From contig OZ245002.1 of the NCBI GenBank assembly GCA_965223415.1, positions 5,504,001 through 5,568,000 on the forward strand: a stretch of 64,000 bases of DNA, read 5' to 3'. The notes under the pieces are model-generated. The model did not search any database, was not told the origin of the DNA, and saw only the letters and a program-made list of their open reading frames with translations. Positions 6,020-25,125 of this stretch are shown here, one piece after another. The number at the start of each line of letters is the position of its first letter. The stretch's first letter is position 1. This DNA comes from Myxococcota bacterium. GTDB taxonomy: Bacteria; Myxococcota_A; UBA9160; UBA6930. The position numbers and the translations under genes were made by a program.

Positions 6020-6023
<4 letters not shown>
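5136..6023 (-). CDS. Universal stress protein (tandem USP domains)
   Basis: Two repeats of ...DFS...G(T/S)(H/R)G.TG.K..VLGSVAE....APC.V. Confidence 0.95.
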
Positions 6024-7435
<1,412 letters not shown>

Positions 7436-7447
7436 GGCCTTCTCGGA

Positions 7448-7463
7448 AGCACGGGGCGTGCCA
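7448..7463 (-). promoter_or_regulatory. sigma54 -24/-12 promoter motif upstream of the activator gene itself
   Basis: Minus strand TGGCACGCCCCGTGCT. Confidence 0.75.
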
Positions 7464-7500
7464 GACCTTGCGGTCGAGATCGGCTTCCGGGGCGTGAGTG

Positions 7501-7517
7501 TGGGGCAAAATTCCCCA
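7501..7517. promoter_or_regulatory. Palindromic candidate enhancer/operator TGGGG-N7-CCCCA
   Basis: TGGGGCAAAATTCCCCA about 40 bp upstream of the sigma54 motif. Confidence 0.5.
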
Positions 7518-7547
7518 GCACGCTACAGACGACTGGGCCTCGTTGAC

Positions 7548-8789
7548 TCACCCGACGACGGGCAGAAGAAGGCGGAAGTCGGTGCCCCGGGCGTCGGAGC
7601 GAGCCACCTCGATGAGCCCGCCGTGCTCCGTCACGATGCCGTGGGCCACCGCCAGCCCCAGGCCGTGGCCTTCGCCCGCTTCCTTGGTGGTGACGAAGGG
7701 ATCGAAGACCTGCTCCGGGTCTTCCATGCCGATACCGGGGCCGGTGTCCTCGACGTGCACCTCCACCTCGCCCTCGTCCGTCTGGGCCAGGGAGACGCGG
7801 ATCTCGCCGCCATCGGGCATGGCGTCGGCGGCGTTCAGCAGCAGGTTCAGCAGCACCTGCTGCAGCCGCTCGGGATCGCCGGAGACGCTGGCCACGTCGG
7901 CCAGCCTGAGGACCGGTTCGATTCCGCGGCGCGCGAACTTCTCGTTGAGGAAGGCCACCGTGTTCTCGATCAGCGGCCGCAGGTCAACGGGGATGCTGCG
8001 GGAGCGCGACGGACGCGCCATCCCGAGCAGGCTCTCGATGATGCGGGAGATGCGTCCGATCTGCTGCTGGATCGTCTCGAGCCGCCAGCCCGCGTCCTCC
8101 CCCCGCACCGAGGACTCGAGCAGCTTGGCGTGGCCCCGGATCACGCCCATGGGGGTGCCGATCTCGTGGGCGAGCCCCGCGACGAGCACGCCGATCGATG
8201 CCAACCGCTCGGCGGCCCGGGCGCGCTCGGTCGTCTGCCTCAGCTCGACTCCGGTGCTCTCCAGGTCCCGGGCCAGCTGGCGGCCCGCGTTCGAGAGCTC
8301 TTCGTTCAGGTGCTGCAGGTCCCGCTCGCGGCGCGCGATGTAGCGATCCATGGCGATGTGCATGTCGAACATCATCAGCTTCTGGAGGGCGACCAGGGTC
8401 CGCTCACCCCGCACCAGGTCGCCGTGGGTGTGCTCCCAGACGAGCGGCGTGAGCAGCCCGAAGTAGAGGCTGTAGGCGCCGATGTACCAGCGCGGATCGA
8501 GGCCGATGCGCTCGTGGGCCTCGCCGATGCGCCGCCGCTCCCGGACGTAGGCCTCGTCGATCTCGGGCCCGGCCAGGCTCATCAGGTAGCGGCGCTGCTC
8601 ATCCAGCAACCGCTTCGTCACCTCGGGCTCTCGCAGGTGCCGCTGCGTGTCCGGGAAGGAGAGCAAGTGGCGGTAGAAGGCCGAGACGAGCCGCTCCGCG
8701 TGCTGCTCGAGGATCGGCTTCAGGTCGCGCAGCGCCTCCCGATCGGCCTCGCCGTACTCGAAGAACGCGATCTCGTCGGAGACGTCCAT
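7548..8789 (-). CDS. Soluble globin-coupled sensor histidine kinase (protoglobin + HisKA + HATPase)
   Basis: Globin: LVSAFYRHL, RRRIGEAHERIGLDPRWYIGAY; H-box LAHEIGTP; N-box LNLLLNAADA; DTGPGI, FDPFVTTK, GHGLGL; no TM helix. Confidence 0.92.
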   Translation of the reverse strand: MDVSDEIAFFEYGEADREALRDLKPILEQHAERLVSAFYRHLLSFPDTQRHLREPEVTKRLLDEQRRYLMSLAGPEIDEAYVRERRRIGEAHERIGLDPRWYIGAYSLYFGLLTPLVWEHTHGDLVRGERTLVALQKLMMFDMHIAMDRYIARRERDLQHLNEELSNAGRQLARDLESTGVELRQTTERARAAERLASIGVLVAGLAHEIGTPMGVIRGHAKLLESSVRGEDAGWRLETIQQQIGRISRIIESLLGMARPSRSRSIPVDLRPLIENTVAFLNEKFARRGIEPVLRLADVASVSGDPERLQQVLLNLLLNAADAMPDGGEIRVSLAQTDEGEVEVHVEDTGPGIGMEDPEQVFDPFVTTKEAGEGHGLGLAVAHGIVTEHGGLIEVARSDARGTDFRLLLPVVG

Positions 8790-15580: not shown

Positions 15581-15596
15581 CGGCATGCCGGTTGCT
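15581..15596 (+). promoter_or_regulatory. sigma54 -24/-12 promoter motif
   Basis: CGGCATGCCGGTTGCT upstream of the HPF-diiron operon. Confidence 0.7.
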
Positions 15597-15608: not shown

Positions 15609-15950
15609 ATGGAGATCCATTGGCGAAACCCCGGTGAGCTGGACGAGGCGGAACGCGACCAGGCGGAGGAGCGGCTCGCGCGCCTCGCCGACGGACACAA
15701 CGACCTGATCGACGTGTGGGTCGACGTGGAGAGCGAGAGCGGCCACCACCGCAACGGGCCGCGCCGGGTCGCCATCCGCTGCCAGGCTCGGCGGGCCGAG
15801 CTGGTCGCCCATGGCGAGGCGGACGAGCCCGCCACCGCCCTCCACCACGCCCTCGAGACCTTCTCCCGCGAAGTCCACCGTCTCCGCGACAAGCGCCGCG
15901 AGAGACGTGCGCGCACCGCCCCACGCATTCCCGAGGAGGAAGCACCGTGA
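15609..15950 (+). CDS. HPF/RaiA-like ribosome hibernation protein (short form)
   Basis: Beta-alpha-beta-beta-beta-alpha pattern; EERLARL, SGHHRNG, ELVAH, ALHHALETFSREVHRLRDKRR. Confidence 0.75.
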   Translation: MEIHWRNPGELDEAERDQAEERLARLADGHNDLIDVWVDVESESGHHRNGPRRVAIRCQARRAELVAHGEADEPATALHHALETFSREVHRLRDKRRERRARTAPRIPEEEAP

Positions 15951-16831
15951 CCGATTTCCTGAAGGGCTACGACATCCAGTACTGGCTCGAATCCGCTCCC
16001 CAGGGCTACCTGCAGGACACGGAGTACGGCCACCGGGTGGGCGAGAAGGAGCCGGACCTGCTGATGGAGGAGGCGACCCTCCGCGAGCAGGCCATCGACA
16101 CCACGGTGCAGCTCGTCGTCGGCGAGCGCTGCGCGCTCGCGGCGTCCTCGGGCCTGATCAACGCCGCCCCGGACGAGGCCAGCAAGCGCTTCCTCGCCAC
16201 CCAGACCCTCGACGAGGCCCGCCATGTCGAGATCTTCACCCATCGGCTCTTCGACCTCGGCGTGAAGCCGAAGGAGCTCGAGGACGTGATCTCCCAGCGG
16301 GCCAACCCGCATCTGGTGAGCTTCGCCGAGCTGCTGCTGGACAAAGTCGACAAGAAGGACTTCGTCGCCGGCGTGGTGGGGCAGAACGTGGTGCTCGAGG
16401 GCATGGCGTTCCGCGTCTTCGAGATGCTCCACGAGGGCAACGCGAAGACCAACCCCAAGTTCGCCCACATCCTCTCGGGCACGATCGCCGACGAGCGTCG
16501 CCACGTAGGCTTCGGCGAGAACCGCATCGGCTCGCTCATCCGCGAGCATCCCGATCGCAAGGGCGACGTGGAGCAGCTGCAGAAGGAGATGTCCTACCAC
16601 ATGCTCGCCACCTTCGGCGCCCAGTTCCGCAAGGGCCCGAGCCCGGCCGAGATGCAGCAGATCATGGAGGACCGCGGCGTGCAGCGAGACGAGGCCGAGT
16701 GGCAGGGCGTGAAGCTCGGTCAGGCCTCTCCGGAAGAGCTCGAAGAGGTGCTCGGCGACACGATCCTGAAGGAGTTCAAGCTCCGGCTCGAGCGGATCGG
16801 CGTCGAGTACCAGACGCCGATCCGGCCCTAG
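15947..16831 (+). CDS. Ferritin-like diiron-carboxylate protein A
   Basis: GAGGAGG SD, GTG start; ligand pattern E(GERCA)...DEARH...E(LEGMA)...DERRH. Confidence 0.88.
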   Translation: MTDFLKGYDIQYWLESAPQGYLQDTEYGHRVGEKEPDLLMEEATLREQAIDTTVQLVVGERCALAASSGLINAAPDEASKRFLATQTLDEARHVEIFTHRLFDLGVKPKELEDVISQRANPHLVSFAELLLDKVDKKDFVAGVVGQNVVLEGMAFRVFEMLHEGNAKTNPKFAHILSGTIADERRHVGFGENRIGSLIREHPDRKGDVEQLQKEMSYHMLATFGAQFRKGPSPAEMQQIMEDRGVQRDEAEWQGVKLGQASPEELEEVLGDTILKEFKLRLERIGVEYQTPIRP

Positions 16832-16832
16832 C

Positions 16833-17618
16833 ATGGCAACCCGCGAGCCGGGGGCAGGCGAGCTGCACGATCTGCCCCCGGACCTCTTCCACGAGCACGT
16901 CCACTCCTTCGAGCACTGGCTGGGCTCGGTCCACGGCTACCTCGAGGACCGTCCCTGGGGCCATCGGGAGGATCTCGCCACCGGGGAGCTCTCCGCCGCC
17001 GAGCGCGACCGACTGGTGTCGACCCTCTGCAACTACTGCGTCGGGGAGACCGCCGCCCTCGAGGGCGCCGGCGGCCTGATCCGCGTGGCCCCGAACCGCC
17101 CCCTCAAGGTGTTCGTCGCCACCCAGGCCGCCGACGAGGCGCGGCACCTCGAGGTGCTGATCCACCGCCTGCGCGAGCTCGGCGTGGACGATCCCGAGGC
17201 GGAGATCACCCGCCGCGCCCACCCGGGCCTGCTGCGCTTCAAGCAAGAGCTCCTCGGCCTGGTCGGCGACGGCGACTGGCTGCGCGCGCTGTTCGCCCAG
17301 AACGTCATTCTCGAGGCGATGGAGTTCACCGTCTTCCGCTACCACGCTCGCGAGGCCGATCCGGTGACGAAGGACCTGCTGGTCGGCATCATCAAGGACG
17401 AGCGCCGTCACATCGGCTTCGGCGAGAACGAGCTGGGCCGCCAGCTCAAGCAGGACGCCGATGCGGCCGCCCGCCTGGCCGCGGTGCGGGAGCGCCTCGA
17501 CCCCCTCGTCCTCCAGAGCTTCGAGCAGGCCCTCGAAGAGCTGGCCGTGCCGGCCGGCGAGCGCCACGAGCTGGGCCGCGACTACCTCGCCGCCGTCGGG
17601 AGGCTCGGGATCGTATGA
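16833..17618 (+). CDS. Ferritin-like diiron-carboxylate protein B (paralog of A)
   Basis: E(GETAA)...DEARH...QNVILE...DERRHIGFGEN. Confidence 0.88.
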   Translation: MATREPGAGELHDLPPDLFHEHVHSFEHWLGSVHGYLEDRPWGHREDLATGELSAAERDRLVSTLCNYCVGETAALEGAGGLIRVAPNRPLKVFVATQAADEARHLEVLIHRLRELGVDDPEAEITRRAHPGLLRFKQELLGLVGDGDWLRALFAQNVILEAMEFTVFRYHAREADPVTKDLLVGIIKDERRHIGFGENELGRQLKQDADAAARLAAVRERLDPLVLQSFEQALEELAVPAGERHELGRDYLAAVGRLGIV

Positions 17619-17881
17619 GTCTCGACGAACCCCGCCAGCGGTTCGACCTCGACGATCGGGGCTTCGACGAGGTGCCCCGCAAGTACCGCAAGTACTACCG
17701 GCGCTGGGAGGGGCCCGACGACGAGCTCGGCCCCAACGAGATCCTGTGCCCGGTCTGCAAGATCGTGGTCCGATCCAATCGCGAGCTGCGCCCGGGCGAT
17801 CGGATGTACTGTATGGCGTGTCTGACGAGGCTGCGGATCACCGAGGCCGAGGGCCGATTGGAGGCCGAGGTCGAGTACTGA
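17615..17881 (+). CDS. Small 4-Cys metal-binding protein (zinc ribbon/rubredoxin-like), 88 aa
   Basis: CPVC-x17-CMAC; ATGA overlap with protein B. Confidence 0.8.
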   Translation: MSLDEPRQRFDLDDRGFDEVPRKYRKYYRRWEGPDDELGPNEILCPVCKIVVRSNRELRPGDRMYCMACLTRLRITEAEGRLEAEVEY

Positions 17882-18330
17882 TGCGCACCTCCTGGACATG
17901 GGAGCCCCGAGACACCATGGACCAGCCCGGTGCGCACAAGCGGATGAGCCTCGAAGCCCGGCGCATCTCCTCCCAGCACCGCAAGCTCAACATGCTCCAC
18001 CGCGTGGTGGTCGACGCCATCAACCGCGCCCGCCCCGCCGAGTGCATCACCGCCTTCAAGCGCTTCCGGGAGGCCCTCGACTCCCACTTCTCCCTGGAGG
18101 ACGAACTCTACTTCCCGGCCCTCCACGGCCTGCGCCGCGACCTGTCCGCCACCCTCGAACGGCTGAGCCAGGAGCACGCCGCCCTGCGAAGCCGCCTGGC
18201 GGAGCTGGAGGCGGCGTTCGTCGAGGCCCGGCTGGACGAGTGCGCGCGGCTCCTCGATACCGTGGGCGCGGCGATCGCCGACCACGAGAGCCGGGAAGAG
18301 CAGGTGCTGCGGGCGTTCCGCGATTCCTAG
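17881..18330 (+). CDS. Hemerythrin-like (HHE) domain protein
   Basis: QHRKL, HFSLEDELYFPAL, QEH, HESREE; start at 17881 (TGATG overlap) or 17917. Confidence 0.85.
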   Translation: MRTSWTWEPRDTMDQPGAHKRMSLEARRISSQHRKLNMLHRVVVDAINRARPAECITAFKRFREALDSHFSLEDELYFPALHGLRRDLSATLERLSQEHAALRSRLAELEAAFVEARLDECARLLDTVGAAIADHESREEQVLRAFRDS

Positions 18331-18523
18331 TCCCGGCCGGTGGGTCGAGATCCGAAAACCCCTCGCTCTCGCGCTCCGGGCAGGCGTCGTCGTCGTAGAC
18401 GTGCCGGAACGAAGGCCCCTCCCAGTCCTCGAACTGGCCCTCCCGGGCCGCCCGGAGCACCAGGGCCAGGAGCAGGGCCGCGAGCAGCAGCGAGACCGGC
18501 AGGGTCACGGCGAGGAAGCTCAT
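18056..18523 (-). CDS. ccoS: cbb3-type oxidase assembly protein CcoS/FixS (conserved part about 18380-18523; ORF reads through to 18056)
   Basis: MSFLAVTLPVSLLL...AAREGQFEDWEGPSFRHVYDD directly after ccoI. Confidence 0.8.
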   Translation of the reverse strand: MSFLAVTLPVSLLLAALLLALVLRAAREGQFEDWEGPSFRHVYDDDACPERESEGFSDLDPPAGTRNRGTPAAPALPGSRGRRSPRPRYRGAARTRPAGPRRTPPPAPPGGFAGRRAPGSAVRGWRTGRGAGRGGPGSRVRPPGRSGSRGPPGSA

Positions 18524-20700
18524 GCGTCGGGGCTCCAGCGCAGCAGCCGGATCGCGTTGCCGGTCACCACGAGAGACGACGCGCTCATGGCGATCGCTGC
18601 GTGGAGGGGCTCGAGCCAGCCGGCCACCGCGAGCGGAACGGCCACCAGGTTGTAGAGCAGCGCGAAGCCCAGGTTCTCGCGGATGCGGGCCACGCAGGCC
18701 CGGGCCAGGCCCAGGGTCGTCGGGAGCGCCGTGAGACGAGGCGAGCGGATCACCAGATCGGCCGCGTGGAGGGTGACGTCGGAGCCGCGGTGCATGGCGA
18801 GGCCGACGTCGGCGGCTCCGAGGGCGGCGGCGTCGTTGATGCCGTCGCCGGCCACGAGCACACGGCGGCCGGCCCGTCGCAGGGTGCGCACCTGGGCGAC
18901 CTTCTCCTCCGGCGACTGCTCGGCGTGGACCACCGGCACGCCCGCAGCGGCGGCGGCCAGACGGGCGGCCGTAGGGTGGTCGCCGGTCACGAGGGAGGCG
19001 GCGACGCCCTGGCGCTGCAACGCCTCCACGGCCAGGCCGGCGTCCTCCCGCGGCGGATCCCAGAGAGCGAGCAGGCCCAGAACCTCCTCGTCCCGTGAGA
19101 CGGCGACGAGGCTCAGGCCCGCCGCGGCGGCCTTGTCCGCGGCCTCGCGGAGCGGCGCGGGCAGCGCGGCCCCCGCCTCCTCCAGCCAGCGCGGAGAGCC
19201 CGCGCGCAAGAGCGCATCTCCCGCCCGCGCCTCGACGCCAGCACCGGGCCAGGTGCGCCGCTCCGTGAGCTCGGGCAGCACGGCGTCGGCGGCGGCCTCG
19301 CGCAGGGCCTCGGCCACGGGATGGGTCGAGGCGCCTTCGACGGCGGCGGCCCAGAGCCGGAGCTCCTGCTCGCTCACGCCGGGCGCGGTGTGCAGCTCGC
19401 GCACGGCGAAGCGCCCCTCGGTGAGGGTGCCGGTCTTGTCCAGGGCCACCGCGTCGACCCCGGCGCAGCGCTCCAGCGCCTCGCCGCTCTTCACCAGGAT
19501 GCCGAGGGACGCGGCGCGGCCGACGGCGGCGGTGATCGCCGCGGGCGTGGCGAGACCGAGAGCGCAGGGACAGGCCACGATCAGCACGGCGGCGGTGGCG
19601 AGCGCCACGTCCAGGGGCGCGGCCCCCTTCCACAGCCAGAAGCCGGCGGTGGCGGTGGCGATGGCCAGCACCGCCGGCGCGAAGACCGAGGCCACCCGGT
19701 CCGCCAGCCGTTGGATGCGGGGCCGCTCGGCCTGGGCGCGCTCGAGGAGCGCCGCCATCTTGGCGAGGGTGCCCTCGGCGGGCCGAGCCACGACCTCGAT
19801 CTCCGCTTCCACCAGCAGGTTGCGGCTGCCGCCGATCAGGAGCTCGCCGGGCTCCCGCAGGACCGGGCGCGCCTCGCCCGTGAACGGCGCCTCGTCCACC
19901 TCGGTGGCGCCGGAGCACAGGCGCCCGTCGGCGGGCACGGCCTGGCCGGCGGGGACGAGGACGCGGTCGCCTACCGCGAGACTCGCGGCGTCCACCTCGA
20001 CGGGGCCCTCGGGCGTGCACAGGAGCGCCTTCGGCGGCGCCAGGGCGGCCAGGCGATCGACCGCCGAGCGTGCCTTGCCCCGCGCGCCGCGCTCGAGGGT
20101 GCGGCCGAGGAGCACCAGGAAGACGATCATGGCCGCCGAGTCCATGTAGAGGTGCGACGTGCCGGCGAGAGTACCGGCCACGCCGACCCCGAAGGCGGTC
20201 GTGATGCCGGCGACGATGGGCACGTCGACGGAGAGCTCGCCGCAGCGCAGTCCGCTCCAGGCCCCGCGCCAGAAGGGTGCCGCACACCAGGTGATCGCCG
20301 GCACCGTGAGCACCAGCGTGAGCCAGCGCAGGACCTGGCGCACGGCCGGATCCATGCCCTGGTAGCTGCCGGAGTAGAGAGCGACCGAGAGCCACATCAC
20401 GTTGCCGGCCAGGAAGGCCGCCACCAGCAGGCGCACGAGGGCGGCGCGCTGGCTGCCGGCGGCCGGCCGATCCAGCACCTCCGGGTCGAAGGGGGTCGCG
20501 TCGTAGCCGAGCTCGCGCACCACCCCGACGAGGGCGTCGGCGGAGCTGCGCTCCGGGTCGATGCGCACCAGGGCCCGGTGGCTGGTGTAGTTCACGGCGG
20601 CCTCGTCCACGCCGTCGGCAGCGCGCAGGGCCCGCTCCACCCGGTTCACACAGCCGGCGCAGTGGAGCCCGTCCAGGAAGAGGCCGACGTCCGCGGTCAT
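18520..20700 (-). CDS. ccoI: Cu-translocating P1B-type ATPase CcoI/FixI
   Basis: HMA GLHCAGC, TGE, CPCALGLA, DKTGTLT, HP, GDGIND, YN, MSASS. Confidence 0.93.
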   Translation of the reverse strand: MTADVGLFLDGLHCAGCVNRVERALRAADGVDEAAVNYTSHRALVRIDPERSSADALVGVVRELGYDATPFDPEVLDRPAAGSQRAALVRLLVAAFLAGNVMWLSVALYSGSYQGMDPAVRQVLRWLTLVLTVPAITWCAAPFWRGAWSGLRCGELSVDVPIVAGITTAFGVGVAGTLAGTSHLYMDSAAMIVFLVLLGRTLERGARGKARSAVDRLAALAPPKALLCTPEGPVEVDAASLAVGDRVLVPAGQAVPADGRLCSGATEVDEAPFTGEARPVLREPGELLIGGSRNLLVEAEIEVVARPAEGTLAKMAALLERAQAERPRIQRLADRVASVFAPAVLAIATATAGFWLWKGAAPLDVALATAAVLIVACPCALGLATPAAITAAVGRAASLGILVKSGEALERCAGVDAVALDKTGTLTEGRFAVRELHTAPGVSEQELRLWAAAVEGASTHPVAEALREAAADAVLPELTERRTWPGAGVEARAGDALLRAGSPRWLEEAGAALPAPLREAADKAAAAGLSLVAVSRDEEVLGLLALWDPPREDAGLAVEALQRQGVAASLVTGDHPTAARLAAAAAGVPVVHAEQSPEEKVAQVRTLRRAGRRVLVAGDGINDAAALGAADVGLAMHRGSDVTLHAADLVIRSPRLTALPTTLGLARACVARIRENLGFALLYNLVAVPLAVAGWLEPLHAAIAMSASSLVVTGNAIRLLRWSPDA

Positions 20701-20897
20701 CCCTGCGCCTCCACCTCCCGCGGGTGGAAGCCGCTGCGTCCGCCGTCGGCTTCGAAGGCCTCGTCCACGATGACCGGGTCCGGCGTGCGGTAGGCAACGA
20801 CGGCGAAGCCGATCGACACCAGCATCATCAGGGCGAGCATCGAGGCGAGGATCCAGGGCCAGGGCTCGGTGCGGCGCTCCGTCGGGTCAGCCTGCAT
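20697..20897 (-). CDS. ccoH: Short CcoH/FixH-like membrane protein (66 aa)
   Basis: EPWPW + single TM + PDPVI between ccoG and ccoI, with overlapping start/stop codons. Confidence 0.65.
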   Translation of the reverse strand: MQADPTERRTEPWPWILASMLALMMLVSIGFAVVAYRTPDPVIVDEAFEADGGRSGFHPREVEAQG

Positions 20898-22203
20898 CGC
20901 GGATCTCCGGTGTGAGGAAGTGGGTCGGCCGCACGAGGGGGCGATCGCCCCCCTCGACCGGCTCGAGCACGAAGCGCAGCTCCTTGCGGGTTCCGTCGGG
21001 CTCCCAGCCGAGCGGCGCCATCACGAAGACGCGGGCCTCCACCGCGTCGGTCGGCCCGACGGGGATCGGGTTCTGGCCGGCGATCAGGGCGAAGTCGGTA
21101 CCCGTGGCCTCGACGCGGATCCGGTAGGCGTGCTCGACCCGATCGCGGTTCTCGAGGCGGAGGGTGAAGGCGTTGCCATAGCGCCCGTCCGCGGCGCGAC
21201 CGAACAGGGCCTGGCGGTTGTGCATGACCGTGAAGTCCATCGGCACGCGCACCATGAGCAGCGCGGCAAAGGCCACGCCGGCAGCGACGAGCATGCCGCC
21301 GTAGACGACCACCCGGGGCCGCAGGACCCGGGCCGGCCGGGTGCCCTCGAGGGCCGAGAGCGCGCGGTATCCGATCAGCTCGGGCTCCCGGCCAGTGCGG
21401 GCCATCACCCCGTTGCAGGCGTCGATGCACTGGGTGCAGGTGATGCATTCGAGCTGCAGGCCGTCGCGGATGTCGATCTCGGTGGGGCAGACCTGCACGC
21501 AGAGGCCGCAATCGACACAGTCGCCTGCGACGGTCCCGCGCTTGCCCCGCGGCTCGCCGCGGGCCCGGTCGTAGCTGATGACGAGGGTGTCGCGGTCGAA
21601 CAGCACGCCCTGGAAGCGGGCGTAGGGGCAGAGATAGCGACAGAAGGTCTGCTTCACGACGACGAAGTCGAGGTAGGAGAGGACGGCCATCACCACGAGG
21701 AAGCCGAAGGCGGCGCCGTAGGGGCCGCCGGACTGGAGGCGTTCCAGCAGCTGGTAGGGCGAGGCGAAGTAGGCCACGAGGTGGAAGCCGATCACGAGGG
21801 AGAGTCCCATCCACACGAGGTGGGTGAGCAGGATCCGCCAGGCCGCGACCCGCTCGGGCGGCCGCGGCCCCTTCCAGCCCTGGAGGAAGCGCGCCACCAC
21901 GGCGAAGACATCGGTGAAGACGGTCTGCGGGCAGGCCCAGCCGCACCAGACGCGCCCGAGGAGGGCCGTGAAGAAGAAGAGCGCCAGGGCCAGCGCTGCC
22001 AGGATCAGCCACAGGAAGTAGAGCTCCTGGGGCGCGATCACGAGGCCCAGCACGTGGAACTCGCGGGCCGGGATGTCGAGCTGCACCAGGGGCTCGCCGC
22101 CGATCCGGATCCACGGGATCCCGAACAGGACGGCGATGAGCGCCACGTCGGCCCAGGCGCGCAGCGTACGGAACCGGCCGCTCACCGCGCGAGCGGAGAG
22201 CAC
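20887..22203 (-). CDS. ccoG: Cytochrome c oxidase accessory protein CcoG/FixG
   Basis: GRVWCGWACPQT, FCRYLCPYARFQ, DCVDCGLCVQVCPT, ECITCTQCIDAC. Confidence 0.96.
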   Translation of the reverse strand: MLSARAVSGRFRTLRAWADVALIAVLFGIPWIRIGGEPLVQLDIPAREFHVLGLVIAPQELYFLWLILAALALALFFFTALLGRVWCGWACPQTVFTDVFAVVARFLQGWKGPRPPERVAAWRILLTHLVWMGLSLVIGFHLVAYFASPYQLLERLQSGGPYGAAFGFLVVMAVLSYLDFVVVKQTFCRYLCPYARFQGVLFDRDTLVISYDRARGEPRGKRGTVAGDCVDCGLCVQVCPTEIDIRDGLQLECITCTQCIDACNGVMARTGREPELIGYRALSALEGTRPARVLRPRVVVYGGMLVAAGVAFAALLMVRVPMDFTVMHNRQALFGRAADGRYGNAFTLRLENRDRVEHAYRIRVEATGTDFALIAGQNPIPVGPTDAVEARVFVMAPLGWEPDGTRKELRFVLEPVEGGDRPLVRPTHFLTPEIRDAG

Positions 22204-22206
22204 GCC

Positions 22207-22782
22207 CTACCCCCCTGCGCCCTGCTGGGCCTGGGCCGCGTCGTGCTCCGGCGAGCCCACGCCGGGCTCGTCGGTGCGCTCGAGGGTCTCCATGTAGGCG
22301 AGCACCTTCCAGATCTTCTCGTTGCCGAGCTGGGGGCCCCAGGGCGGCATGCCGAGGGGCCGGCCGGCGTTCACCGTCTCGAAGAGCGCGGCGTCGCTGT
22401 CGCCGTACTTCCAGTAGGGATCGATCACGCTCGGACCCACGAGCCCCCGCCCGTCGGGCAGGTGGCAGGCGACGCAGATCTGGGTCCACACCTCCTGGCC
22501 CTGGGCGATCGCGGCGCTGTCGCCGCGGTACGGATTCGTGTCCGGGAGGGCCTCGCGCACGGAGGCGAAGGCGGCTTCCGCCTCGGCGACCTCGGCCTGC
22601 CAGCGCTCCGCCTGGGAGTGCGGCGCCATGGCGCCGTAGAAGAAGATGTAGCCGAGCCCGTAGAGGATCAGCCCATAGAAGCCCAGGTTGAACCAGGCCG
22701 GGATCGCGTTGTCCTCTTCGCCGATGCCGTCCCGCTCGGGCTCGTCCACCAGCGGCCGCTCGGGAATCTGCTCCGAGCTCAT
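22207..22782 (-). CDS. ccoP: cbb3-type cytochrome c oxidase subunit III (monoheme)
   Basis: DGIGEEDNAIPAWF N-terminus, TM, single CVACH, GMPPWG. Confidence 0.9.
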   Translation of the reverse strand: MSSEQIPERPLVDEPERDGIGEEDNAIPAWFNLGFYGLILYGLGYIFFYGAMAPHSQAERWQAEVAEAEAAFASVREALPDTNPYRGDSAAIAQGQEVWTQICVACHLPDGRGLVGPSVIDPYWKYGDSDAALFETVNAGRPLGMPPWGPQLGNEKIWKVLAYMETLERTDEPGVGSPEHDAAQAQQGAGG

Positions 22783-22931
22783 TCTCCGTCCTCCTCGAGC
22801 ATGCGGTGGGCAGGCGCTTCGAAGCGCGCCCTCTGGCCGGGCCGGAAGAGCCACACGCCGATACCGACCAGAACCAGGGCCAGGAACGCCAGACGGCCCA
22901 GCTTGTAGAGGGCGACCCACTCCTCGCTCAT
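22779..22931 (-). CDS. ccoQ: cbb3-type cytochrome c oxidase subunit IV
   Basis: 50 aa, TM followed by WLFRPGQRARFEAPAHRMLED; between ccoO and ccoP. Confidence 0.85.
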   Translation of the reverse strand: MSEEWVALYKLGRLAFLALVLVGIGVWLFRPGQRARFEAPAHRMLEEDGE

Positions 22932-23611
22932 CGGGCCGCTCCCTTCACCGAGGTCCCCAGGGACTGCAGGTAGGCGATCAGCGCCACGGTCTCGCTGCGG
23001 GCCTGGGCTTCGCTCAGCTCGATGCGATCGCGCCGGAGCTCCGCTGCGATGGCGTCGGCCTGAGCCAGGGCGTCCCGCCCCGCGTTCGCCACCTCGGCGT
23101 CCTCGTAGGGCGCGCCCAGCATGCGGAGCACCTCCAGCTTGCGAGGGAGCGTCGAGGTATCGATCGGTCTCGACGAGAGGAAGGAGAAGCTCGGCATGTT
23201 CGAGCGCGGCTCGATCTTCTGCGGGTCCTCGAAGTGCAGCCAGTGCCAGGAGTGTGGGTAGCGCCCGCCGACCCGCGCCAGGTCCGGCCCCGTGCGGCGG
23301 GAGCCGAACAGGAAGGGCCGGTCGTAGACCGACTCGCCGGCCAGGGAGTACGGCCCGTAGCGGTCGGTCTCGGTCTTGAAGGGCCGCACCTGCTGGCTGT
23401 GGCAGGTGTTGCAGCCCTCGCGCACGTAGATGTCCCGGCCCTCCTGCTCGAGGGCGGTGTAGGGCCGGTGGCCCTCGATCGTCTCCACCGTGCCCTGGAG
23501 GTAGAAGGGAGGGATCAGCAGGACGAGGCCGCCGACCACGATGCACAGCAGGGTGAGCCCGGTCAGGGACAGCCACTTCCGCTCCAGGGGGCGATGCCAC
23601 TCGTACGCCAT
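22928..23611 (-). CDS. ccoO: cbb3-type cytochrome c oxidase subunit II
   Basis: GRDIYVREGCNTCHSQQVRP, GSRRTGPDLARVG, SNMP. Confidence 0.96.
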   Translation of the reverse strand: MAYEWHRPLERKWLSLTGLTLLCIVVGGLVLLIPPFYLQGTVETIEGHRPYTALEQEGRDIYVREGCNTCHSQQVRPFKTETDRYGPYSLAGESVYDRPFLFGSRRTGPDLARVGGRYPHSWHWLHFEDPQKIEPRSNMPSFSFLSSRPIDTSTLPRKLEVLRMLGAPYEDAEVANAGRDALAQADAIAAELRRDRIELSEAQARSETVALIAYLQSLGTSVKGAAR

Positions 23612-23612
23612 C

Positions 23613-25070
23613 TCAGCGCCCTCCCGCCACGGCGGCCGCGGCGCCGGCCGGGGGCGCGTCGGCCTCCGGGACCTCCACCGAGCCCTGCTGGATCGTCTTC
23701 CAGACGTTGTAGACCATCACCAGGGCGCCTCCGAGGAAGAAGACGCCGCCCACCACGCGGATCACGTCGTAGATACGAATGGCAGAGACGGTCTCGATGA
23801 AGGTGTAGGTGAGGCTCCCGTCCGGGTTGACCGCCCGCCACATGAGGCCCTGGGTCACGCCGGACACCCACATCGGCGTCACGTAGAGCACGATGCCGAG
23901 GGTGGCGACCCAGAAGTGCACCTCGGCCAGGCGCTGGCTGTAGAGCTTCGTGTGCCACAGCCGCGGCACCATGTAGTAGAGGGTGGCGAAGCAGGTGAGC
24001 GCCACCCAGCCGAGGGCGCCGGAGTGGACGTGGCCGATCGTCCAGTTGGTGAAGTGGGAGAGCGAGTTCACCGAGCGGAGCGACATCATCGGCCCCTCGA
24101 AGGTGCTCATCCCGTAGAAGGTCAGCCCCACCGCGAACATCTTGAGCAGCGGATCCGTGCGCACCTTGTGCCAGGCGCCGCGGAGGGTGAGCAGCCCGTT
24201 CAGCATCCCGCCCCAGGAGGGGAAGATCAGCATGATCGAGAAGGCGGCACCGAAGGTCTGTGCCCAATCCGGCAGCGGCGAGTAGATCAGGTGATGCGGC
24301 CCGGCCCAGATGTAGATGAAGATCAGCGACCAGAAGTGCAGGATCGAGAGCCGGTGGGAGAAGATCGGCCGCCCCGCCTGCTTCGGCAGGAAGTAGTACA
24401 TGAGGCCCAGGATCGGCGTGGTGAGCAGGAAGCCCACCGCGTTGTGGCCGTACCACCACTGGATGTTCGCATCGTAGACGCCGGAGTAGGCCGAGTAGGA
24501 CTTCATCCACGAGACCGGCCAGGCCATGCTGTTCGTGATGTGCAGCATGGCGATGGTCAGCACCGTCGCGACCCAGAACCAGATGGCCGCGTACATCGCC
24601 TTCTCCCGCCGCTTGGCGAGAGTGCCGAAGACATTGATCGCGTAGACCACCCACACGACGGCGATGGCGATGTCGATGGGCCACTCGAGCTCGGCGTACT
24701 CCTTGGCGGTGGAGTAGCCCCCGAGCAGACTCACGGCGGCGGCGACGATGATGCCGTTCCACAGCCACAGGTTGATCCGCGAGAGCGTGTCGCTGAACAT
24801 CCGCACGCGGCACAGGCGCTGGAGCCCGTAGTAGGTGCCCGCAAAGACCACGCCCAGCGTGAAGCCGAAGATCACCGCGTTCGTATGGACCGGGCGCACG
24901 CGCCCGAAATGCAGGTACGGCCCCCAGTTCCATTCCGGCCAGGCCAGCTGGATCGCAGCCAGCAGTCCCACCAGCATGCCCACCACACCCCACAGCAGCG
25001 CTGACAGGGAAAACCCCCGCACCACCGCCATGTCGTAGAGGACGGGCTCGGCGTTCGTTCGTGTGCTCAC
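23613..25070 (-). CDS. ccoN: cbb3-type cytochrome c oxidase subunit I
   Basis: RPVHTN, KEYAELEW, QWWYGHNAVGF, WAGPHHL, STFEGP, WTIGHVHSGALGW; GTG start 25070. Confidence 0.97.
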   Translation of the reverse strand: MSTRTNAEPVLYDMAVVRGFSLSALLWGVVGMLVGLLAAIQLAWPEWNWGPYLHFGRVRPVHTNAVIFGFTLGVVFAGTYYGLQRLCRVRMFSDTLSRINLWLWNGIIVAAAVSLLGGYSTAKEYAELEWPIDIAIAVVWVVYAINVFGTLAKRREKAMYAAIWFWVATVLTIAMLHITNSMAWPVSWMKSYSAYSGVYDANIQWWYGHNAVGFLLTTPILGLMYYFLPKQAGRPIFSHRLSILHFWSLIFIYIWAGPHHLIYSPLPDWAQTFGAAFSIMLIFPSWGGMLNGLLTLRGAWHKVRTDPLLKMFAVGLTFYGMSTFEGPMMSLRSVNSLSHFTNWTIGHVHSGALGWVALTCFATLYYMVPRLWHTKLYSQRLAEVHFWVATLGIVLYVTPMWVSGVTQGLMWRAVNPDGSLTYTFIETVSAIRIYDVIRVVGGVFFLGGALVMVYNVWKTIQQGSVEVPEADAPPAGAAAAVAGGR

Positions 25071-25109
25071 GCAAAGGCCCCCTTCCGCGCCGGACGTCGT
25101 GCAGGAGAG

Positions 25110-25125
25110 ATGCCAACGCAGGGCG
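25110..25125 (-). promoter_or_regulatory. sigma54 -24/-12 promoter motif for the cco operon
   Basis: Minus strand (T)TGGCATCTCTCCTGCA. Confidence 0.7.

What the first reader, a model, noticed from the sequence alone, without database searches (positions are those of the whole stretch)
15609..18330. Uncharacterised operon: HPF + two paralogous diiron proteins + 4-Cys protein + hemerythrin
Seen: five tightly coupled genes (GTGA, 1-nt gap, ATGA, TGATG junctions) behind a sigma54 motif. Both ferritin-like proteins keep the full E...ExxH...E...ExxH ligand set and share unusual strings (GLI..AP, F.ATQ..DEARH, QNV.LE.M.F.VF, DERRH.GFGEN), so they are diverged paralogs. Known: heterodimeric diiron enzymes (PaaA/PaaC, BMM alpha/beta) normally have one degenerate subunit and a flavin/ferredoxin reductase; neither applies here. 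Inference: a new heteromeric O2/NO-handling diiron enzyme (oxidase, oxygenase or desaturase) with a rubredoxin-like electron donor and a hemerythrin O2 supplier, expressed with cbb3 oxidase. This is the best candidate for an undescribed system in the window.
Basis: partly seen in the sequence, partly recalled or inferred. Interest (0 to 1): 0.85.

Follow-up and report, generated by a model that had tools for sequence, protein, structure and literature searches.

The report
Low-oxygen three-gene diiron enzyme operon
Two related iron-binding enzymes and a small metal-binding partner travel together through many uncultured bacteria, usually behind a switch of the kind that turns genes on when oxygen runs low, and what they do there is not yet known.

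Summary
The five genes, junctions, ligand sets and sigma54 site are as described. The conserved unit is only three genes: diiron paralogs A and B plus 4-Cys protein C (65 of 80 GTDB loci); HPF (1/80) and hemerythrin (8/80) are local additions. A is a full-length distant relative of azoxy synthase VlmB (TM 0.82, 23% identity) without vlm partner genes, and meets no NCBIfam cut-off. All six ligands are invariant in both A and B. C has a LysW-type zinc-ribbon fold, not rubredoxin, and lacks LysW's carrier tail. New here: the operon sits behind a DosR box in 13/14 Actinobacteria, an FNR box in 5/7 Proteobacteria and a sigma54 site in 44/59 others, beside CBS, USP, HemN, cbb3, NnrS and protoglobin-kinase genes. 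So it belongs to low-oxygen/NO regulons in three lineages. Best reading: an O2-activating oxidase/oxygenase acting on a common cellular substrate under microoxia (0.42); NO/N-oxide turnover is the main rival (0.25). Substrate, metal and complex formation are untested. The scan noted the same trio earlier in another genome (e1-5045731). I found no paper describing it.

The parts
15581..15595 (+). sigma54-type promoter (-24/-12), 28 nt before the HPF ATG, so the HPF message is probably leaderless
   Evidence: same spacing in a same-genus genome (L175); directly upstream of A in same-family genomes L174, L176
15609..15950 (+). HPF/S30AE-like ribosome hibernation protein, 113 aa; local addition, not core
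   Evidence: Pfam 28.6 bits > 23.7; 1 of 80 GTDB loci; coding substitution pattern
15947..16831 (+). Core subunit A, 294 aa, ferritin-like (R2-type) diiron protein, full-length distant relative of VlmB; Phe97 at the radical-Tyr position
16833..17618 (+). Core subunit B, 261 aa, paralog of A with intact ligand set, an invariant extra Glu164, and without A's C-terminal VlmB-like insert
17615..17881 (+). Core subunit C, 88 aa, basic; CxxC-x17-CxxC LysW-type zinc ribbon (res. 40-88) with a conserved basic/aromatic N-terminal part and C-terminal Tyr; no LysW carrier tail
17881..18330 (+). HHE-type hemerythrin-like protein D (H33, H69xxxE73, H99, H135xxxE139); frequent neighbour, not core
6020..8789 (-). 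Context: protoglobin-coupled histidine kinase (7548-8789) and NtrC-type sigma54 activator (6020-7435), the likely regulator (inferred)
   Evidence: Pfam; same pair near A-B-C in several relatives
18520..25115 (-). Context: ccoNO(Q)P-ccoG-ccoI-ccoS cbb3 oxidase cluster with a weaker sigma54-like site (TGGCAT-N5-CTGC, about 25101-25115)
   Evidence: Pfam; TIGR00780 over cut-off; upstream sequence printed

Best explanation
A-B-C is a three-protein ferritin-like diiron oxidase/oxygenase system switched on when oxygen falls. SHOWN: A has the R2/VlmB-type fold; both A and B keep all six metal ligands; C is a LysW-fold 4-Cys protein; the three genes co-occur and carry lineage-specific low-O2/NO regulator sites. 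INFERRED: A (which can occur alone or with C only, and keeps VlmB's C-terminal insert) is the VlmB-like catalytic core; B is a second, differently tuned diiron subunit; basic C docks on acidic A/B as small subunit or one-electron shuttle. The reduced Fe(II)Fe(II) (or Mn/Fe) site binds O2 and oxidises or oxygenates a small, common cellular substrate, as VlmB, ADO and PaaA do for theirs, so that an O2-dependent step keeps running, or a harmful reduced metabolite is removed, under microoxia. Electrons come from the substrate (as in VlmB's first step) or from general cell carriers, since no reductase travels with the operon. The substrate is unidentified; the repeated hemN linkage (haem pathway) and a small N-containing molecule are the leads.
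For: Fold: VlmB is the top structure (Foldseek TM 0.82; VIA Z 28.1 vs 23.4 for R2lox; profile E 1.6e-27 over residues 8-285); the next matches are O2-activating enzymes (R2lox, ADO, BMM, PaaA, BoxB, AurF/CmlI). Ligands invariant. Trio in 65 of 80 GTDB loci; B lies directly before C in 72 of 73 C-anchored metagenome loci with flank (71 counted plus L095 by inspection). Regulator boxes: DosR core 13/14 Actinobacteria (shuffle mean 0.4), FNR 5/7 Proteobacteria (0.7), sigma54 44/59 others (5.8), each nearly confined to its lineage. 30 of 80 loci hold a CBS, HHE, USP, CcoI, HemN, CcoN or NnrS gene against 3.6 expected, while SDR and acyl-CoA dehydrogenase controls are at background. The island content matches the hypoxia-induced NmpR regulon of M. 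xanthus (PMC11841059). VlmB mechanism from review passages (PMC13755311). Charge: A, B median pI about 5, C about 9.
Against: No substrate-pathway gene recurs in 159 loci, which also fits a gas as substrate. Inducing an O2-consuming enzyme when O2 is scarce is not the obvious design. Pocket residues differ from VlmB (Q146/N147 for F/T), so VlmB's chemistry cannot simply be transferred. DosR and FNR-type boxes also answer to NO. The M. xanthus NmpR enhancer is not enriched (8 of 43 vs 10.1 shuffled), so the sigma54 link to oxygen sensing rests on neighbourhood. Several loci are close kin (L053/55/57/59/68) and the background came from one genome.
Confidence: 0.42

Rival explanations
1. A nitrosative-stress enzyme: the diiron sites bind or turn over NO or another N-oxide (2 NO to N2O, NO oxidation, or clearing iron-nitrosyls), working alongside NnrS and an HHE hemerythrin.
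For: In the host's class NnrS is in 18 of 22 C-positive and 8 of 26 C-negative genomes, and in the four genera with both kinds all 12 genomes agree (5 both, 7 neither), although nnrS is usually on another contig. NnrS (4), NnrU (2) and a globin (1) are among 150 nearest neighbours; NosZ recurs in 3 loci. nnrS is a core member of NO regulons (PMC1274295 passages; PMC11526790 passages). The closest enzyme, VlmB, does N-N/N-O chemistry. No partner pathway is needed for a gas.
Against: Only 8 of 23 C-positive genomes have NirK, and 6 of those 8 also have a qNor-type domain, so it does not fill a missing-Nor gap; the host has no NirK, qNor or NarG match. A review says NO reductase activity of sMMO, R2 and YtfE is negligible (PMC9268430). 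NnrS is in 105 of 251 phylum genomes, most without the trio. C-positive genomes are larger in two of the four mixed genera.
Confidence: 0.25
2. A split rubrerythrin-like scavenger that reduces O2 or H2O2 to water to protect dormant cells on re-oxygenation, with C as rubredoxin substitute.
For: Diiron site plus 4-Cys partner is the rubrerythrin logic (established knowledge); stand-alone operon in a dormancy-type island with USP, CBS, HPF and WS/DGAT.
Against: Fold is the large R2/VlmB type, not the four-helix type (rubrerythrin Pfam E 0.08 and 0.014; small ferritin-like proteins Z about 12). C is LysW-like and lacks the CxxCG knuckles. Rubrerythrin is in 14 of 23 C-positive and 10 of 20 C-negative genomes, so no replacement pattern.
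Confidence: 0.12
3. A non-catalytic iron holder or donor (RIC/YtfE-like role) feeding haem and Fe-S synthesis or repair under low O2.
For: hemN is next to the operon in 5 of 80 GTDB loci and follows it in the same direction in L174, L177 and, for a 49% A homolog, L182; YtfE precedent (PMC9268430 passages).
Against: Buried R2-type sites with a conserved Trp/Asp/His setting are typical of catalysis (inference); hemN clusters with this regulon anyway; no hemN among the nearest neighbours scanned in actinobacterial loci.
Confidence: 0.1
4. A VlmB-type azoxy synthase of a natural-product pathway, with C as LysW-like amino-group carrier.
For: VlmB is the closest characterised protein; C has the LysW fold.
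Against: No VlmO- or VlmH-like match in the host genome and no VlmA/H/O/R match in any of the 88 loci searched; VlmB forms its own long-branch clade (SH-aLRT 100, quick tree); C stops at the residue where LysW's tail begins and ends in Tyr/Phe/His, never Glu.
Confidence: 0.04
5. An alternative class I ribonucleotide reductase radical subunit (R2c-like Mn/Fe).
For: Weak matches to Chlamydia NrdB; Phe at the radical-Tyr position as in R2c/R2lox.
Against: NrdB model 17 bits vs cut-off 237; no NrdA among 150 nearest neighbours or recurrent clusters; R2 ranks below VlmB, R2lox and ADO by structure.
Confidence: 0.02

Closest known systems
VlmB azoxy synthase (PDB 8WVR/6D9F, Kitasatospora setae) and VlmB-like proteins
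   Same: Same fold over the whole chain (TM 0.82, Z 28.1), same E-ExxH-E-ExxH set, shared N-terminal 'YWL...QG.L' segment and, in A, the C-terminal 'W.G..L....PE' insert.
   Different: 23-31% identity; single gene in vlm clusters with VlmH/O/R/A and SerRS, none of which accompany A-B-C; two paralogs plus a zinc-ribbon partner; hypoxia-regulator boxes; different pocket residues.
R2lox and aldehyde-deformylating oxygenase
   Same: Next-best structures (Z 23.4, 23.1), same ligand pattern, Phe at the radical-Tyr site; A shares Gly before the first Glu and Asn four before the third Glu with R2lox.
   Different: Far below family cut-offs (27.7 vs 194; 31.2 vs 222.65 bits); Gln146 replaces the R2lox cross-link Tyr position; no acyl-ACP reductase neighbour seen.
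Heteromeric diiron oxygenases (BMM alpha/beta, PaaA/PaaC)
   Same: Two paralogous ferritin-like genes plus a small subunit in one operon; fold matches Z 17-22.
   Different: Both paralogs keep all ligands, where BMM beta and PaaC do not (established knowledge); no reductase or ferredoxin recurs; 9-16% structural identity.
LysW amino-group carrier
   Same: C residues 40-88 superpose on LysW 1-48, rmsd 1.6-1.8 A.
   Different: No acidic C-terminal carrier tail, basic instead of acidic, 39-residue conserved N-terminal extension; no LysX/ArgX among recurrent neighbours.
NmpRSTU regulon (M. xanthus), DosR and FNR/DNR regulons
   Same: Protoglobin kinase + NtrC activator + CBS, USP, cbb3, HemN, hemerythrin in the island (PMC11841059 section 22); DosR and FNR boxes in other lineages.
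   Different: The NmpR enhancer GCGCA-N5-TGCGC is not enriched; 'ferritin' does not occur in that paper's main text.

Membership tests
Ferritin-like diiron oxidases/oxygenases (R2-type fold) | R2-type helical bundle | tested here: met
   A model pLDDT 90; B by 41% identity, not folded alone
Ferritin-like diiron oxidases/oxygenases (R2-type fold) | E...ExxH...E...ExxH ligands | tested here: met
   invariant in 79/79 A and 65/65 B
Ferritin-like diiron oxidases/oxygenases (R2-type fold) | Dimetal centre that activates O2 | not testable with these tools
   needs metal analysis and spectroscopy
VlmB azoxy synthases | Full-length homology to VlmB | tested here: met
   profile E 1.6e-27, residues 8-285; only 23-31% identity
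VlmB azoxy synthases | Falls inside the VlmB clade | tested here: not met
   VlmB-like proteins form a separate clade, SH-aLRT 100, in a quick tree; order of A, B, VlmB branches unresolved
VlmB azoxy synthases | Clustered with VlmO/VlmA/VlmH/VlmR | tested here: not met
   0 tblastn hits in 88 loci; no VlmO or VlmH hit in the host genome (queries from one Streptomyces cluster)
Class I RNR R2 | Family score, radical Tyr or R2c context with NrdA | tested here: not met
   17 vs 237 bits; Phe97 in 78/79; no NrdA neighbour
R2lox | Family score and cross-link Tyr | tested here: not met
   27.7 vs 194 bits; Gln146 at the Tyr position
Aldehyde-deformylating oxygenase | TIGR04059 cut-off | tested here: not met
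   B 31.2 vs 222.65; B passes loose Pfam cut-offs of three different ferritin-like families at once, which is not diagnostic
BMM / PaaAC | One metal-free paralog and a dedicated reductase | tested here: not met
AurF/CmlI N-oxygenases | Extra His ligand before the last ExxH (position recalled) | tested here: not met
   no His there in A (Thr179) or B (Ile186); Z 16
Rubredoxin (protein C) | Rubredoxin fold with CxxCG knuckles | tested here: inconclusive
   no rubredoxin listed; best matches are LysW; Gly after second Cys absent; bound metal untested
LysW carrier (protein C) | Zinc-ribbon fold | tested here: met
   (E 0.014; Z 5.1, modest but clear of the rest), atlas lead 0.88
LysW carrier (protein C) | C-terminal Glu carrier tail | tested here: not met
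   column 88 is Y 65, F 4, H 1 of 70
O2-carrier bacteriohemerythrin (protein D) | Family score and five-His motif (motif recalled) | tested here: not met
   23.4 vs 84 bits; four conserved His with two HxxxE
NmpR regulon | GCGCA-N5-TGCGC enhancer | tested here: not met
   0 of 43 at <=1 mismatch; 8 of 43 at <=2 vs 10.1 shuffled

The most novel reading that the evidence does not exclude
A-B-C is a soluble heteromer with two working diiron sites of different tuning and a LysW-fold redox or radical partner, recruited independently into DosR, FNR/DNR and sigma54 regulons, that turns over NO or another N-oxide (for example N-N coupling to N2O) or performs an unrecognised O2-dependent step of microoxic survival: a new gas-handling enzyme class in abundant soil and sediment bacteria.
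Probability: 0.22. Interest if true: 0.88.

Novelty: new variant of a known kind. Interest (0 to 1): 0.64.

Why it matters
It is a strongly conserved (mean identity A 70%, B 58%, C 66% across 65 trios), widespread enzyme system outside every curated family tested, in uncultured Myxococcota, Binatia, Acidimicrobiia and Proteobacteria. Heteromeric diiron enzymes normally silence one subunit; here both sites are kept. Three unrelated oxygen/NO regulators appear to have been wired to the same operon, which marks it as a core part of low-oxygen survival and tells experimenters under which condition to look. It also shows that the natural-product enzyme VlmB has housekeeping-type relatives. If it turns over NO, it bears on N2O budgets of soils and sediments.

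Tried and rejected
Complex prediction of A+B+C with C as partner gave no verdict (score 0.73, one control 0.76) and is not used either way. No RNA holder was listed for the stretch, so expression is untested; read laying was not used. Searches for longer forms of C and B returned 4 and 2 proteins; all six looked like frameshifted read-throughs of the same operon, so no real fusion was found (weak search). PDB sequence search with the C profile found only chance zinc fingers; Foldseek against viral structures gave only R2 proteins; rubredoxin was not listed. NmpR enhancer not enriched; a de novo palindrome scan gave only weak leads. 'Missing NO reductase' idea rejected; rubrerythrin-replacement idea rejected; NarG in 2 of 43 genomes. 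Cluster look-up of 10 distant homologs gave no informative names. Plasmid search found only VlmB-like and weak ferritin-like matches, 18 records. The careful tree did not finish; the quick tree is reported. A/B/C distance correlations (0.43-0.57) reflect kinship and are not evidence of binding. My NnrS profile missed the host's own nnrS (found), so that row's expectation is slightly low. Literature: searches returned no description of this trio; the primary VlmB papers were not seen (only review passages), one hemerythrin review was not held, and no supplements were read, where regulon or homolog tables could list these genes.
Full report
Observation. The five ORFs, their GTGA, 1-nt, ATGA and TGATG junctions, and the sigma54-type site at 15581-15595 are in the sequence as described. 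A (294 aa) and B (261 aa) are 41% identical over 193 aa and carry the four quoted strings. The window has 5 exact NGGYAY-N5-TTGC sites against 1.3 expected from the genome-wide rate, all before genes of one island. HPF is coding and passes Pfam but not TIGR00741; D passes Pfam Hemerythrin. The host is a 5.8-Mb genome whose closest named relatives are Myxococcota/'Deltaproteobacteria' MAGs.

The conserved unit. A search with A gave 2024 proteins at E<=1e-10 and 485 confirmed GTDB stretches, of which the best 80 were kept. Of those 80 loci, 65 hold A, B and C (one with B-C divergent, two with a frameshifted B), 4 hold A and C only, 7 hold A alone, and 4 are cut by a contig end; HPF is found in 1, a D relative in 8, directly after C in 2. 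From the other side, of 79 C-anchored metagenome loci, 73 had enough upstream DNA and B lay directly before C in 71 by the script, 72 with L095 by inspection; 32 of 38 with longer flank had A and B; D followed within 700 nt in 14 of 52. Record titles span Myxococcota, Binatia, Acidimicrobiia, Gamma- and Alphaproteobacteria, all MAG-type records. In a sample of 251 genomes of the host's phylum C was found in 23, of which 22 in the host's class of 48. An A/B match was found in 22 of 23 C-positive and 1 of 20 C-negative genomes. So the system is A-B-C; HPF and hemerythrin are local additions.

What A and B are. No NCBIfam cut-off is met. The best PDB sequence for A is 6D9F/8WVR, the VlmB azoxy synthase (E 1.5e-15; profile E 1.6e-27 over residues 8-285). 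The A model (pLDDT 90) matches VlmB at TM 0.82 and 23-24% identity, VIA Z 28.1 against 23.4 for R2lox and 23.1 for ADO. All six ligands are invariant in 79 of 79 A and 65 of 65 B sequences (rows with stops or short length were dropped, 3 for A and 3 for B), although B averages only 58% identity, so B's site is under selection. The radical-Tyr position is Phe in 78 of 79 A. B lacks about 30 C-terminal residues that A shares with VlmB and has an invariant Glu164 where A has Ala154, so the two pockets differ. In a quick tree of 75 rows B and the VlmB-like proteins each form a clade (SH-aLRT 100) and A with some environmental relatives another (94); their order is unresolved. VlmB genes sit in vlm clusters; no VlmA/H/O/R match lies in any of 88 loci, and the host has no VlmO or VlmH match. 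Review passages say VlmB is a non-haem diiron enzyme whose hydrazine substrate reduces the diferric site and whose azoxy oxygen comes from O2 (PMC13755311; PMC11705231); I did not see the primary papers.

What C and D are. The C model (pLDDT 91) has LysW as its top four Foldseek matches (best E 0.014, rmsd 1.6 A) and VIA Z 5.1 and 4.7 against 2.6 for the next; the atlas gave LysW as a lead at 0.88. These scores are modest but agree. C ends where LysW's carrier tail would begin, in Tyr in 65 of 70, and is basic (median pI 9) while A and B are acidic (about 5). It is therefore neither a LysW-type carrier nor a recognisable rubredoxin; its metal is untested. D has four conserved His with two HxxxE motifs, scores 23.4 against a cut-off of 84 for bacteriohemerythrin, and weakly resembles the M. 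kansasii HHE protein 6Q09 (E 0.0087), reported to have catalase activity and react with NO (PMC6993866 passages). The five-His O2-carrier motif is recalled.

Regulation, the main new result. In the 250 nt before A, a DosR core (consensus from PMC2275270 passages; <=3 mismatches) occurs in 13 of 14 actinobacterial loci (shuffle mean 0.4, max 2), an FNR-type box (<=2) in 5 of 7 proteobacterial loci (0.7, max 2), and a sigma54 site (<=2) in 44 of 59 other loci (5.8, max 10; exact relaxed motif 34 of 59 against 0.13). Each motif is at background in the other two groups. FNR and sigma54 consensus are recalled; shuffles were mononucleotide; several loci are close kin; lineage labels come from record titles. 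Neighbours agree: 30 of 80 loci hold a CBS, HHE, USP, CcoI, HemN, CcoN or NnrS gene against 3.6 expected from random windows of the host genome, while SDR (12 vs 17.7) and acyl-CoA dehydrogenase (10 vs 9.2) are at background and P450 is about twofold up (15 vs 8.0). Among 159 loci the commonest neighbour clusters are CBS (34), D-like (25), regulators typified by an NtrC activator (24) and kinases typified by a protoglobin kinase (21); no reductase, ferredoxin or pathway enzyme recurs (clusters in 3 or more loci; part of them scanned with Pfam). This content matches the hypoxia-induced NmpR regulon of M. xanthus (PMC11841059, abstract, passages and section 22), but the NmpR enhancer itself is not enriched. 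In G222 exact sigma54 sites precede both A and ccoN; in the window ccoN has a weaker one.

O2 or NO. Among 23 C-positive and 20 C-negative genomes: cbb3 13 vs 4, protoglobin 20 vs 8, NnrS 19 vs 5, NirK 8 vs 3, qNor-type domain 6 vs 1, NarG 2 vs 0, rubrerythrin 14 vs 10. Over the whole class NnrS is in 18 of 22 vs 8 of 26, and in four genera with both kinds all 12 genomes agree. That is the best hint of an NO role, since nnrS belongs to NO regulons (PMC1274295, PMC11526790 passages). Against it: most carriers, and the host, show no NirK or qNor; NnrS is in 105 of 251 phylum genomes; genome size is a confounder; and a review calls NO reduction by sMMO, R2 and YtfE negligible (PMC9268430 passages).

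Mechanism. Shown: fold of A, ligand conservation, LysW fold of C, co-occurrence, regulator motifs, neighbourhood. Inferred: a complex of A, B and C; a dimetal centre in each large subunit; reduction by substrate or general carriers, perhaps through C and the conserved N-terminal Trp and the Asp before the last ExxH (an R2-like relay, recalled and not checked on coordinates); reaction with O2. Because every close structural relative activates O2 on an organic substrate, I put an oxidase/oxygenase acting on a common cellular molecule under microoxia first (0.42), NO/N-oxide turnover second (0.25), then O2/H2O2 scavenging (0.12), iron donation (0.10), azoxy synthesis (0.04) and RNR (0.02). That it is a real, uncharacterised, low-O2/NO-regulated diiron module I hold at about 0.85.

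Novelty. It works like a ferritin-like diiron oxygenase and belongs to that superfamily, but fails the membership tests for VlmB, R2, R2lox, ADO, BMM/PaaAC and AurF. Six literature searches found no description of the trio; subscription papers and supplements were not seen. The scan noted the same trio in another genome (e1-5045731; an unchecked AI note that agrees, and is not independent evidence); the few lines shown do not mention the regulatory convergence or the NnrS link. Verdict: new variant of a known kind, interest 0.64.

Noticed in passing
G000:C1:4680965-4681852 (-), loci L002/L089: Second copy of A in the host genome (71% identical) without B or C, behind a perfect TGGCAC-N5-TTGC site, next to a mobile-looking region with a transposase-like ORF. 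Extra A copies without B or C also occur in G067, G152 and G182.
   Followed up: partly
window:1-25115: The whole left part of the window is a dormancy/low-oxygen island: WS/DGAT, CBS and USP proteins, NtrC activator, protoglobin kinase, AAA_33 kinase-like protein, cytochromes c, GNAT, cbb3 cluster; another hemerythrin-like ORF lies just left of the window.
   Followed up: partly
window:728-1732 (+): 335-aa secreted or outer-membrane-looking protein with no Pfam match, behind a sigma54 site at 671; relatives recur in 13 of 159 A-B-C loci (cluster 11). A second uncharacterised member of this regulon.
   Followed up: no
window:9303-9566 (-): 87-aa helical protein with no family match that recurs in 6 of 159 loci (cluster 21).
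   Followed up: no
L049:1394-3326; L064:3531-5927; L017, L023, L061, L075, L181: Variants of the operon: tandem A-A-B-C; B-C divergent from A; A-C without B.
   Followed up: partly
L182 (G072:C29): A 49%-identical A homolog without B or C sits directly before hemN and near nosZ and the protoglobin kinase, behind a sigma54 site: a sister subfamily in the same regulon.
   Followed up: partly
P0222: 773-aa protein that fuses an acyl-CoA-dehydrogenase-like (VlmH-like) N-terminal part to a VlmB-clade C-terminal domain; one Logan contig.
   Followed up: no
upstream of A in L002, L016, L024, L032, L033, L051: Palindrome CCGACCGATCGGTCGG or close variants near the sigma54 site, possibly a repressor operator; seen by eye, not tested.
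   Followed up: no
G000 genome: The host has 10 matches to A at E<=0.001; five examined ones form a separate ferritin-like clade far from A, B and VlmB.
   Followed up: partly
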